Shown piece by piece: positions 56,871 through 58,843 of a DNA stretch of 64,000 bases. Position 1 is the stretch's first letter. Each line of letters starts with the position of its first letter. A model generated the notes under the pieces. The model worked only from the letters and a program-made list of their open reading frames with translations, was not told where the DNA came from and searched no databases. Origin of the DNA: Escherichia phage vB_EcoM_Alf5. The stretch lies in the sequence record KX377933; one strand, written 5' to 3'. A program made the position numbers and the translations under genes.

Positions 56871-57055
56871 AATGACCTCAAAGTTATATTAAATTTTGTA
56901 TTACATTGAGTATAAAAATAAGCTATAACACCTGACTTGTCAACAGATTTTATAGCTTATTTGGCAGATTTTTTATAAGGCTACTGCCATCCTTCCATAC
57001 CTTACCTTACCACACCTAACCATACCTAACCAAACTACACCATACAATACCTTGT

Positions 57056-57123
57056 TAAAAGACCCTCTTAAAGACCTTTTAAAAAGGTAAGTCTCATTTT
57101 AATGTAGCTGAGACTAACTACCC
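57056..57123 (-). repeat. direct repeat R1 (~68 bp) containing a minus-strand terminator-like hairpin
   Basis: near-identical to 58466-58535; AGTCTCA...TGAGACT hairpin followed by T-run on minus strand. Confidence 0.6.
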
Positions 57124-57206
57124 GCACCTTACATCGCCATACCCAACCAAACCCAACCAGACCGCACCTTACAGCGCCTAACCTTACCTGACCGAACCAT
57201 ACCTTA

Positions 57207-57262
57207 TTAAAAGACCCTCTTAAAGACCTTTTAAAAAGGAGCCTCCGAAGAGGCTGCCTAGT
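57207..57262 (-). terminator. partial R repeat fused to minus-strand terminator
   Basis: first 33 nt of R then AGCCTC-CGAA-GAGGCT hairpin with T-run on minus strand, after the 57267 stop. Confidence 0.5.
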
Positions 57263-57266
57263 CAAC

Positions 57267-57707
57267 TTAGAAAGGTTTTCTACGTTGCTTGTTAATGTTA
57301 GCCTTCATAGCAGCTAAATGGTTTTGCTGTTCAATCAGTCGTGAACGTTCTTGATGGCTAAGTGCCATAGTGTTCACATTCTCAATCGCTTGAGTGGCTT
57401 GCTTTAAAGCTCGACCAATCTTACCAGACATTTTACGTTTTGCAATAGTTGCTTGATGCTTAGGTTCAACCACACGATAACCAACACCCATTGAAGCAAC
57501 CAGATAAATCTTCTCTTCTTTAAGAAGCTTCTCAATAAACTTCTCAAGTCGGTTTAGACGTGTAAGCGCATAAGCCTTCATTTCATCTTCGTACTTAACA
57601 ATGTCACCTTGATAAGTTGGCTTCACAATACCTAAGAAGGTGTCCATCTCAGAATGTGATACAGTGTCACCGTAACTAAACTTTGCTGCTAATGCTTTCG
57701 TATTCAT
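57267..57707 (-). CDS. hypothetical protein (repeat-flanked cassette gene 2)
   Basis: 146-aa ORF. Confidence 0.45.
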   Translation of the reverse strand: MNTKALAAKFSYGDTVSHSEMDTFLGIVKPTYQGDIVKYEDEMKAYALTRLNRLEKFIEKLLKEEKIYLVASMGVGYRVVEPKHQATIAKRKMSGKIGRALKQATQAIENVNTMALSHQERSRLIEQQNHLAAMKANINKQRRKPF

Positions 57708-57709
57708 AA

Positions 57710-58312
57710 TTAAACGTTACCTTCTGAAATAACTTCTACAGAAAAACGACCAAAGCGTGGACGCCAATCACCTACACCACAAAGGTTACCAGCATTTTCA
57801 AGAACCATCAGAAGTTCCTCTTTGGTGATTTGCTCTTCATCGAACATCAAACCGAACTCTACAGACCAGTCACGGAAGATTGGACGGTAGCTCATAACTC
57901 GTGCTGTACCAATCTTAACAGACTTAGCATAGATGAAGTCTGGATTCTTAGCAAGTTCTTGTGGGTTTGCTGGGCAGTTCTTGATAGTCATTGGGAAGAC
58001 TACATCTGTCAGCATAATGGCTCGGTCAATTACCTTACCAAGTTTATTGAGTTTTGCACCAGACTTGATACAAGCCTCAATCATCTCACCGTTCATAACA
58101 AAACCTAGTTGGTCATCGTAGTAGCAAGAAGTTACCAGTTGACTTTCTGCTAAGAGCGCATAGTCTTCGTCAGTCTTTTTACGTTTACTGGACAGAGACT
58201 TGTGATATTTTGTCAGAGGGTTTAATGGGTCTGACAGAGTATCTGCATGGCTCAGGAAAGGACGAGTACCAGTGATTTTGATATTTAACAGTTTCATAGC
58301 ATTTAGCTCCAC
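57710..58312 (-). CDS. hypothetical protein (repeat-flanked cassette gene 1)
   Basis: 200-aa ORF. Confidence 0.45.
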
Positions 58313-58465
58313 ACTTTAGTTGATTGTTAAGTTGTTTGTAAAGAACCCTCAACAGAAGACTCTTTAGAAACTTGGTAGATTTTTAACGTGGCTACTACCA
58401 TCCACCCATACCAGACCTAACCCGACCGCACCGAACCTGACCAGACCTCACAGCGCCACACCTCA

Positions 58466-58535
58466 TTAAAAGACCCTGTTTAAAGACCTTTTAAAAAGGT
58501 AAGTCTCATTTTAATGTAGCTGAGACTAACTACCC
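58466..58535 (-). repeat. direct repeat R2
   Basis: ttaaaagaccctgtttaaagaccttttaaaaaggtaagtctcattttaatgtagctgagactaactaccc, matches R1 except one small indel. Confidence 0.6.
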
Positions 58536-58843
58536 ATACCAAACAGCACCGCACTATGCCTTACCCCACCTCACCGAGCCTCGCCCCACATCACTTAAAA
58601 AACCCTTTTCAAAGACTCTTAAGTGATGTTGGTGAGTACCCGTTGGTTTATGCTGCTCAGTATACTCACCAAATTTTCTATGTCAACAACTTTTTATAAA
58701 AAAGTTCTGATAGCTATATGTGTCACGAAACAAAAGATTGTAAACAAGACACCCATTGCAAAAGATGTGTCCAAAAGCTTACTTGCAACGTATGACAATA
58801 CAAAGACAACCAGTATAAACAGAATGACTGTACTGAACATAGT

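What the first reader, a model, noticed from the sequence alone, without database searches (positions are those of the whole stretch)
56975..58625. Two-gene cassette bracketed by ~70-bp direct repeats and C/A-rich tracts
Genes 57267-57707 and 57710-58312 are flanked by near-identical repeats (57056-57123 and 58466-58535; partial copies at 57207-57239 and ~58600). Each repeat holds a minus-strand terminator-like hairpin and is bordered by 70-80-nt C/A-rich, G-poor tracts on the plus strand. The layout suggests a moron-like insertion or a duplicated terminator/insulator; the tracts resemble Rho-utilisation sites for antisense transcripts.
Basis: seen in the sequence. Interest (0 to 1): 0.55.

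Follow-up and report, generated by a model that had tools for sequence, protein, structure and literature searches.

The report
Phage VIPR guide-RNA locus (known)
The "repeats and C/A-rich tracts" are the antisense view of four guide-RNA genes flanking a small CRISPR-like protein gene, a VIPR system first described in 2026 preprints, which this Felix O1-like phage appears to aim at a parasitic satellite element in E. coli chromosomes.

Summary
The window is a Felixounavirus, and all genes in this region are on the minus strand.

On that strand, the four "C/A-rich tracts" are runs of 11, 12, 17 and 12 pentamers, YNNGG, in strict 5-nt phase. The ~70-bp "repeats" are an invariant 3' pseudoknot tail plus an inter-guide box.

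**Proteins**
- The 146-aa protein is 99% identical to SUSP1 vap1.

So this is a type II VIPR locus (bioRxiv 10.64898/2026.04.26.720920 and .720927). Vipr polymerises on each vrRNA, and the NN dinucleotides read double-stranded DNA with one base skipped per unit.

**Targets**
- I found the satellite in 474 of 5,426 complete E. coli genomes.
[quoted passage not shown] Felix O1 itself lacks both genes and keeps a single orphan guide, so the cassette is accessory.

Verdict: already known, a solid instance with a few new details.

The parts
58659..58686 (-). Sigma-70-type promoter TTGACA-16-TATACT, likely driving vrRNA1-vrRNA2-vipr-vap1
   Evidence: 11 of 12 consensus positions. The same promoter sits in SUSP1 and Felix O1. 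Its function is inferred.
58585..58632 (-). 5' leader hairpin (box2): arms CATCACTTAA/TTAAGTGATG around the loop GAGTCTTTGAAAAGGGTT, ending at the first guide unit
   Evidence: Inverted repeat I4. Fold -14.5 kcal/mol, z -2.1. Conserved in 23 loci. Its role is unknown; it may be a processing signal.
58534..58588 (-). vrRNA1 guide: 11 YNNGG units (NN = GG GA TC GA GG AA AT GC GC TT AT)
   Evidence: Matches 19/22 in the satellite serine-recombinase gene, with the skipped base at codon position 3.
58498..58533 (-). vrRNA1 3' tail, type A pseudoknot (S1 GTAG/CTAC; S2 AGTCTCA/TGAGACT)
58466..58497 (-). Inter-vrRNA box TTTTTAAAAGGTCTTTAAACAGGGTCTTTTAA
   Evidence: The fold is not better than shuffles.
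58406..58465 (-). vrRNA2 guide: 12 YNNGG units
   Evidence: Matches 20/24 in the satellite leftward small ORF (L030 6218-6253). Not found in 22 related loci.
58374..58405 (-). vrRNA2 3' tail, type B2 pseudoknot (S1 GTGG/CCAC; S2 GGTAG/CTACC)
58333..58371 (-). Box-like stem-loop between the vrRNA2 tail and the vipr ribosome-binding site
   Evidence: -13.6 kcal/mol, z -3.1.
57710..58297 (-). vipr: 195-aa single-RRM RAMP protein
57267..57707 (-). vap1: 146-aa accessory protein with a winged-helix-like core and long helices
57232..57255 (-). Intrinsic terminator AGCCTCTTCGGAGGCT + CCTTTTT after vap1
57207..57239 (-). Box preceding vrRNA3
   Evidence: exact copy.
57122..57206 (-). vrRNA3 guide: 17 YNNGG units, two of them degenerate (TG in place of GG)
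   Evidence: Matches 29/34 at the 3' end of a 236-aa satellite gene (L039 7828-7878), with the skipped base at codon position 3.
57086..57121 (-). vrRNA3 3' tail, type A pseudoknot
57055..57085 (-). Inter-vrRNA box
56995..57054 (-). vrRNA4 guide: 12 YNNGG units
   Evidence: Matches 22/24 over the -10 hexamer and start site of the satellite rightward promoter (L030 6480-6515).
56963..56994 (-). vrRNA4 3' tail, type B1 pseudoknot (S1 AAGG/CCTT; S2 GGCAG/CTGCC)

Best explanation
This is a type II VIPR (Viral Interference Programmable Repeat) locus of the SUSP1 clade, carried by a Felixounavirus.

**How it most likely works**
1. The minus strand encodes four guide RNAs (vrRNAs). Each is a run of YNNGG pentamers followed by an invariant pseudoknotted tail. 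Two lie upstream and two downstream of vipr (a minimal RAMP protein) and vap1 (an accessory, probably DNA-binding protein).
2. One Vipr protomer binds each pentamer and sequesters GGY. This presents the NN dinucleotides.
3. The NN dinucleotides pair with double-stranded DNA of the form xNNxNN..., skipping one base per unit. The bound complex blocks transcription.
4. In this phage all four guides are aimed at an ~11-kb satellite integrated in E. coli chromosomes. The satellite carries Felix O1-like tape-measure and baseplate genes.
5. The system therefore most likely silences a parasite of the phage.

**Shown here**
- Protein identity and fold.
- Repeat grammar.
- Tail covariation.
- Target matches.

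**Taken from the SUSP1 papers**
- vrRNA expression.
- RNP formation.
- The skip rule in vitro and in vivo.
- Repression.

**Inferred**
- That these particular guides repress the satellite during infection.
- How the two downstream guides are transcribed past the terminator.
For: **Proteins**
- Vipr is 97.9% identical to SUSP1 Vipr, with four substitutions. None is at H17, E71, M72, R138, C173, D177, W178 or R179 (the residue list is from 10.64898/2026.04.26.720927).
- vap1 is 99% identical to SUSP1 vap1.

**Repeat grammar**
- In 602 units from 46 unique tracts of 23 loci, position 1 is Y in 98%, position 4 is G in 81% and position 5 is G in 97%.
- The two NN positions carry about 0.1 bit each.

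**Tail**
- The tail pseudoknot is 99% paired. Seven of 9 pairs are compensatory, and the slide controls collapse.

**Targets**
- With a 1-nt skip, the guides match at 19/22, 20/24, 29/34 and 22/24 NN positions. Shuffled-order maxima are 18, 19, 24 and 20.
- With skips of 0, 2 or 3 nt the best matches are 62-79%, all below the 80% threshold used here (vr4 reaches 19/24 at skip 3).
- There is no self-target in the window.
- Across the clade, 35 of 47 guides reach at least 80% with skip 1. The counts for skips 0, 2 and 3 are 0, 0 and 1.

**Distant relatives**
- Distant Vipr homologues (37-39% identity) are also flanked by period-5 GG tracts.

**Published basis**
- The system is described.
Against: - Nothing here shows that these RNAs are made in this phage. 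Expression, loading and repression are carried over from SUSP1.
- vrRNA3 and vrRNA4 lie downstream of a strong terminator, and no promoter was found for them.
- vrRNA3 has 17 units, one more than the published 9-16 range.
- The best matches are 83-92% rather than perfect.
- The vrRNA2 site puts the skipped base at codon position 2 of the small ORF, not at the wobble position (my calculation).
- I sampled only 12 of the 474 genomes that carry a satellite.
Confidence: 0.93

Rival explanations
1. The repeats are duplicated intrinsic terminators or insulators. The C/A-rich plus-strand tracts are Rho-utilisation sites that stop antisense transcripts.
For: - Each type A tail has a 7-bp stem followed by TTACCTTTTT on the minus strand.
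- The plus-strand tracts are 75-78% C+A with few G, which is a rut-like composition.
- A real terminator lies at 57240-57255.
Against: - Composition alone does not explain the strict 5-nt phase, the conserved GGY or the hypervariable NN.
- The repeated hairpin fails the terminator scan and is one stem of a covarying pseudoknot.
- No plus-strand promoter faces the tracts.
- The NN code matches a satellite only at 1-nt skip.
- In SUSP1 these regions give G-strand RNAs that co-purify with Vipr.
Confidence: 0.02
2. The locus is a decaying or inactive VIPR remnant. The genes and tracts are present by descent, but they no longer act on any target in this phage's hosts.
For: - Felix O1 shows that the cassette can be lost, leaving an orphan guide.
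- The guide matches are imperfect.
- Two units of vrRNA3 are degenerate.
Against: - Both ORFs are intact and 98-99% identical to the experimentally active SUSP1 proteins.
- Guides turn over rapidly between near-identical phages while the GGY frame is kept. This indicates ongoing selection.
- All four guides hit one element family.
Confidence: 0.04
3. The G-rich period-5 tracts act at another level: as binding sites for a TRAP-like ring protein in attenuation, as R-loop or origin elements, or as two-tetrad G-quadruplexes.
For: - A triplet plus 2-nt spacer resembles TRAP sites.
- The transcript is G-rich downstream of a strong promoter.
- These were my own first ideas.
Against: - There is no TRAP homologue. 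The adjacent protein is a RAMP.
- A direct explanation with experimental support exists.
- The information lies in the NN positions, not in the G runs.
Confidence: 0.01

Closest known systems
VIPR type II system of Escherichia phage SUSP1 (bioRxiv 10.64898/2026.04.26.720920; structures in 10.64898/2026.04.26.720927)
   Same: - Vipr is 97.9% identical and vap1 99% identical.
- The promoter, leader hairpin, box, three tail types and YNNGG grammar are the same.
- The genomic slot, between the ligase gene and the 127-aa gene, is the same.
- The target element family is the same.
   Different: - The array layout is 2 upstream + 2 downstream, against 1 + 3 in SUSP1.
- None of the three SUSP1 guides that my extraction recovered (3 of its 4) matches a window guide.
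- vrRNA2 was not seen in any of the 22 relatives compared.
- vrRNA3 has 17 units.
- The host phage is a Felixounavirus rather than a Suspvirus.
Class 1 CRISPR-Cas backbone subunits (Cas7 family: Csm3, Cmr4, Csf2)
   Same: - The fold is an RRM core with a glycine-rich loop and a thumb.
- Both oligomerise along a guide RNA and flip bases periodically.
   Different: - There is no CRISPR array, no cas1/cas2 and no second RRM.
- Sequence identity is 7-13%.
- The period is 5 nt, with three guide bases sequestered per unit, rather than 6 nt with one base flipped.
- It reads double-stranded DNA through a gapped code.
Phage-encoded CRISPR-Cas of vibriophage ICP1 directed against the PLE satellite (my own knowledge, Seed et al. 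2013; not checked here)
   Same: A lytic phage carries an RNA-guided system whose guides target a chromosomal satellite that parasitises it.
   Different: ICP1 uses a full type I-F CRISPR-Cas that degrades DNA and acquires spacers. VIPR type II has one RAMP, no nuclease and no known adaptation module.

Membership tests
VIPR, type II, SUSP1 clade | Vipr protein: small (~20 kDa) single-RRM RAMP with a G-loop and thumb | tested here: met
VIPR, type II, SUSP1 clade | More than 90% identity to SUSP1 Vipr (the paper's clade definition) | tested here: met
   191/195 identical.
VIPR, type II, SUSP1 clade | vap1 accessory gene next to vipr | tested here: met
   144/145 identical to SUSP1 ALH47068.1. 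The winged-helix-like fold matches are weak.
VIPR, type II, SUSP1 clade | vrRNAs made of about 9-16 YNNGG units, with GGY conserved and NN hypervariable, in the intergenic DNA flanking vipr | tested here: met
   11, 12, 17 and 12 units. Position statistics come from 602 units. The 17-unit guide is one unit over the quoted range.
VIPR, type II, SUSP1 clade | Invariant 3' tail with a pseudoknot | tested here: met
   Three tail types share a 4-bp + 5-bp H-type pseudoknot. 99% of cells are paired and 7 of 9 pairs have compensatory changes. Only three independent tail types were available.
VIPR, type II, SUSP1 clade | Targets obey the 1-nt-skip rule and lie in a satellite; no self-targeting | tested here: met
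   The window self-scan gave at most 73%.
VIPR, type II, SUSP1 clade | vrRNAs expressed as ~100-nt RNAs that co-purify with Vipr; target transcription repressed | not testable with these tools
   Shown for SUSP1 only.
CRISPR-Cas | Array of identical repeats separated by unique spacers, plus a cas1/cas2 adaptation module | tested here: not met
   The repeat search shows no repeat-spacer array. The neighbouring genes are a ligase, a 127-aa secreted-like protein and an HTH regulator.
Intrinsic terminator (for the repeated hairpin) | GC-rich stem, loop of 3-8 nt, then a T run | tested here: not met
   The scan reports only two terminator-like sites, 57240-57255 and 58868-58887, and neither is the repeated hairpin. 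The repeated stem has a 12-nt loop and belongs to a pseudoknot.
Rho-utilisation site on a plus-strand RNA | C-rich, G-poor, unstructured transcribed RNA of about 70 nt or more | tested here: inconclusive
   The composition fits. No plus-strand promoter faces the tracts, and transcription cannot be tested here.
TRAP-type attenuation site | (G/U)AG triplets with 2-3-nt spacers, plus a TRAP protein | tested here: not met
   The triplet is GGY. The adjacent protein is a RAMP.

The most novel reading that the evidence does not exclude
The repeated vrRNA modules (box, guide, tail) may be recombination substrates as well as guide genes.

- They could shuffle guides between co-infecting Ounavirinae.
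- They can excise the whole vipr-vap1 cassette, leaving orphan guides as in Felix O1. Such orphans, like the satellite-borne vrRNA, would work only with Vipr supplied in trans.
- The conserved stem-loop boxes on both sides of every guide could be a still undescribed maturation signal for type II arrays.
Probability: 0.25. Interest if true: 0.45.

Novelty: already known. Interest (0 to 1): 0.35.

Why it matters
That system is an RNA-guided DNA-binding machine with a gapped code, proposed to predate CRISPR.

For this window the value is confirmatory and descriptive:
- It gives exact coordinates for four guides, their tails and both genes.
- All four guides converge on one satellite family, which is present in about 9% of complete E. 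coli genomes.
- The matched sites are sensible control points: the promoter -10, the integrase gene, a leftward transcription unit and the end of a late gene.
- Independently of the authors' pipeline, the 1-nt-skip rule separates cleanly from the alternatives: 35 of 47 guides against 0, 0 and 1.
- The orphan guide in Felix O1 and the variable array layouts document how the cassette is gained, lost and reshuffled.

Tried and rejected
- **Rfam.** A scan of 56800-58750 at E up to 10 gave only sub-threshold chance hits.
- **Protein families.** Pfam gave nothing for either protein. PHROGs gave only unknown-function families.
- **My first ideas.** TRAP-like sites, R-loop or origin elements, G-quadruplexes and RecA-preferred GT-rich DNA were dropped once the literature search on pentanucleotide repeats found the VIPR preprint.
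- **Box folding.** The inter-guide boxes did not fold better than shuffles (z -0.6 to -1.4). Only box2 and the post-tail stem-loop did. A processing role for the boxes remains a guess.
- **vrRNA3 target.** It had no target in the first four satellites. The match appeared only after eight more variants were fetched.
- **Felix O1 orphan guide.** It has no match in the E. coli satellites.
- **vap1 in distant loci.** vap1 shows no BLASTP similarity to the second gene of the distant locus L024.
- **Word-indexed vap1 search.** It found 3 relatives. The exhaustive search found 234.
- **Satellite search.** Using the whole satellite as the query was swamped by flanking-gene hits.
- **Supplementary data.** The paper's data tables are not held. 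I could not check whether this exact phage is among its 13 clade loci.

Full report
**What the window is**

The region is 92-98.5% identical to about 250 Felix O1-like phage records. The best matches are the E. coli phages LNA6, garuso and Barry. All genes here run on the minus strand. I therefore read everything on that strand.

**Checking the observation**

The two long repeats are 67/70 identical. The box part recurs at 57207-57231 and, in degenerate form, near 58600. The four plus-strand tracts are 75-78% C+A, against 50% for the window.

The decisive feature was not in the finding. On the minus strand, GG recurs at exactly 5-nt spacing for 11-17 units, with occasional units reading TG. 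In-phase CC counts reach 11 per 60 nt here and never exceed 4 elsewhere in the 64 kb.

**Anatomy on the minus strand**

1. A promoter, TTGACA-16-TATACT, at 58686-58659.
2. A leader hairpin.
3. Guide 1 (58588-58534) with its type A tail.
4. A box.
5. Guide 2 (58465-58406) with its type B2 tail.
6. A stem-loop.
7. A 195-aa ORF (58297-57710).
8. A 146-aa ORF (57707-57267).
9. A strong terminator at 57255-57240.
10. A box.
11. Guide 3 (57206-57122) with its type A tail.
12. A box.
13. Guide 4 (57054-56995) with its type B1 tail.
14. The promoter of the next gene.

**Relatives**

Pfam gave nothing for either protein, and PHROGs gave only unknown-function families.

A scan of IMG/VR with the 195-aa protein returned 18 near-identical loci and 6 at 37-39% identity. 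Period-5 GG tracts flank the gene in 23 of the 24 loci; the exception is L022, one of the six distant loci. In the distant, GC-rich phages the unit is NNGGC. This conserved gene-tract link pointed to a protein that reads the repeat.

**Literature**

A full-text search for pentanucleotide repeats in phages found the preprint 10.64898/2026.04.26.720920. It describes VIPR systems as follows:
- Vipr is a ~20-kDa RAMP homologue.
- vap is an accessory gene.
- vrRNAs are made of 9-16 YNNGG repeats, with GGY conserved and NN hypervariable, plus an invariant 3' tail. The tail is pseudoknotted in the SUSP1 clade.
- In SUSP1, four ~100-nt vrRNAs are expressed and co-purify with Vipr.
- The NN dinucleotides read double-stranded DNA with one skipped base per unit.
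- Binding represses transcription.
- Most natural targets lie in a satellite phage in E. coli genomes.

The companion paper 10.64898/2026.04.26.720927 adds structural detail:
- There is one protomer per repeat.
- GGY is sequestered by H17, R138, D177, W178, E71, M72, C173 and R179.
- The gapped hybrid forms a triplex with the non-target strand.

**Membership tests run here**

- **Vipr.** The window protein differs from SUSP1 Vipr at four positions (62, 119, 189, 190). None is a named RNA contact.
- **Repeat grammar.** Across 46 unique tracts (602 units) from 23 loci whose Vipr is at least 97% identical, position 1 is a pyrimidine in 98%, position 4 is G in 81% and position 5 is G in 97%. The two middle positions carry about 0.1 bit each.
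- **Tails.** They are nearly invariant. The three tail types fit one H-type pseudoknot with 99% of cells paired. Seven of nine pairs change on both sides, and pairing collapses when partners are slid. The caveat is that there are only three independent types.

**Targets**

The paper says the satellite's baseplate hub gene resembles SUSP1's. I therefore searched complete E. coli genomes with the window gene next to the tape-measure gene.
- 474 of 5,426 genomes carry a "phage baseplate protein" at 70-95% nucleotide identity.
- It sits in an ~11-kb island with a tape-measure gene, an HNH gene, small unknown genes and a large serine recombinase.
- The island is inserted at yciI-tonB, at a DUF72 gene next to yecN, or at ymdF-wrbA.

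I fetched 12 variants and scored every position on both strands for each guide under skips of 0-3 nt.

| Guide | Best match at 1-nt skip | Shuffled-order maximum | Site |
|---|---|---|---|
| vr1 | 19/22 | 18 | recombinase gene; skipped base at codon position 3 |
| vr2 | 20/24 | 19 | 70-aa leftward ORF |
| vr3 | 29/34 | 24 | last codons of a 236-aa gene upstream of the tape-measure gene; skipped base at codon position 3 |
| vr4 | 22/24 | 20 | -10 hexamer and start site of the rightward promoter TTGACA-17-TAGTAT |

- Only the 1-nt skip gave outliers. The other skips gave 62-79%, all below the 80% threshold.
- The window itself has no match above 73%.
- After dropping the near-constant last unit, 35 of 47 guides from the 23 loci reach at least 80% with skip 1 (27 reach 90% and 3 are perfect). 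The counts for skips 0, 2 and 3 are 0, 0 and 1, and 4 for shuffled unit order.

**Accessory nature**

Felix O1 itself has only 282 bp between the ligase gene and the 127-aa gene. That gap holds the same promoter and leader hairpin, one degenerate guide and a B1 tail, with no vipr or vap1.

About 116 of the 257 matching phage records encode a close Vipr.

Array layouts vary from 1 to 3 detected tracts upstream of vipr and 1 to 3 downstream. Guides are shared in a patchwork: vr1 with three loci, vr3 with one, vr4 with five and vr2 with none.

**Open points**

- Expression and activity are inferred from SUSP1.
- The downstream guides sit after a terminator and have no recognisable promoter.
- The role of the boxes is unknown.
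- The matches are imperfect, and only 12 satellites were sampled.

**Verdict**

The locus is a known kind, VIPR type II of the SUSP1 clade. Interest is moderate to low as a discovery, but it is a clean, well-supported instance.

Noticed in passing
L041 (Felix O1, NC_005282.1) 12633-12914, minus strand: The type phage Felix O1 lacks vipr and vap1. It keeps the promoter, the leader hairpin and one orphan, partly degenerate YNNGG guide with a B1 tail. This looks like a deletion by recombination between the flanking vrRNA modules. The orphan guide has no match in the 12 E. coli satellites.
   Followed up: partly
L032 3119-3202 (E. coli PRO_A-1401-6M-A_ESBL satellite), minus strand: A satellite variant carries its own promoter-driven 13-unit vrRNA with a B2-like tail; one stem pair is changed compensatorily. 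It has no vipr or vap1 anywhere in the element, so it would depend on the helper phage's Vipr.
   Followed up: partly
L029-L040 (E. coli chromosomes): The ~11-kb satellite family has a tape-measure gene, a baseplate gene 70-95% identical to window 43377-44174, an HNH gene and a serine recombinase. It occurs in 474 of 5,426 complete E. coli genomes, at three or more insertion sites. Its annotations are mostly hypothetical.
   Followed up: partly
L030 6428-6493: The satellite has back-to-back divergent promoters. Window guide 4 covers the rightward -10 and start site. Guide 2 sits about 175-210 nt into the leftward unit, so the phage seems to aim at both arms of the satellite's control region.
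   Followed up: partly
window 58466-58497, 57207-57239, 57055-57085, 58585-58632, 58333-58371: Every guide is flanked by a box or stem-loop with the loop motif GTCTT...GAGGGT. This includes one between the last upstream tail and the vipr ribosome-binding site. It may be a maturation signal. The held text of the preprint does not discuss it.
   Followed up: partly
L024 2932-4518 (IMG/VR contig, 38% identical Vipr): A GC-rich distant relative has six (NNGGC)n tracts around vipr and a 148-aa second gene. The tracts are separated by a conserved spacer, GGTTAGGCCATTGCGGGCGAATAGGTCGCTGTGGTCTTT, and each ends in GGTTTTTT. The second gene shows no BLASTP similarity to vap1.
   Followed up: partly
L022 (145,969-nt IMG/VR contig): A 39% identical Vipr homologue has no period-5 tract within 3 kb at my threshold. 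It may have a different repeat consensus or a distant array.
   Followed up: no
GU169904.1 'Staphylococcus phage SA1' 91679-92263: A record labelled as a Staphylococcus phage (147 kb) encodes a Vipr 99.5% identical to the window's. This suggests Felix O1-like sequence in that record, from a chimeric or mixed assembly.
   Followed up: no
window 57068-57265, minus strand: The 65-aa ORF listed here lies entirely over guide 3, its tail and the boxes. It is almost certainly not a gene.
   Followed up: yes
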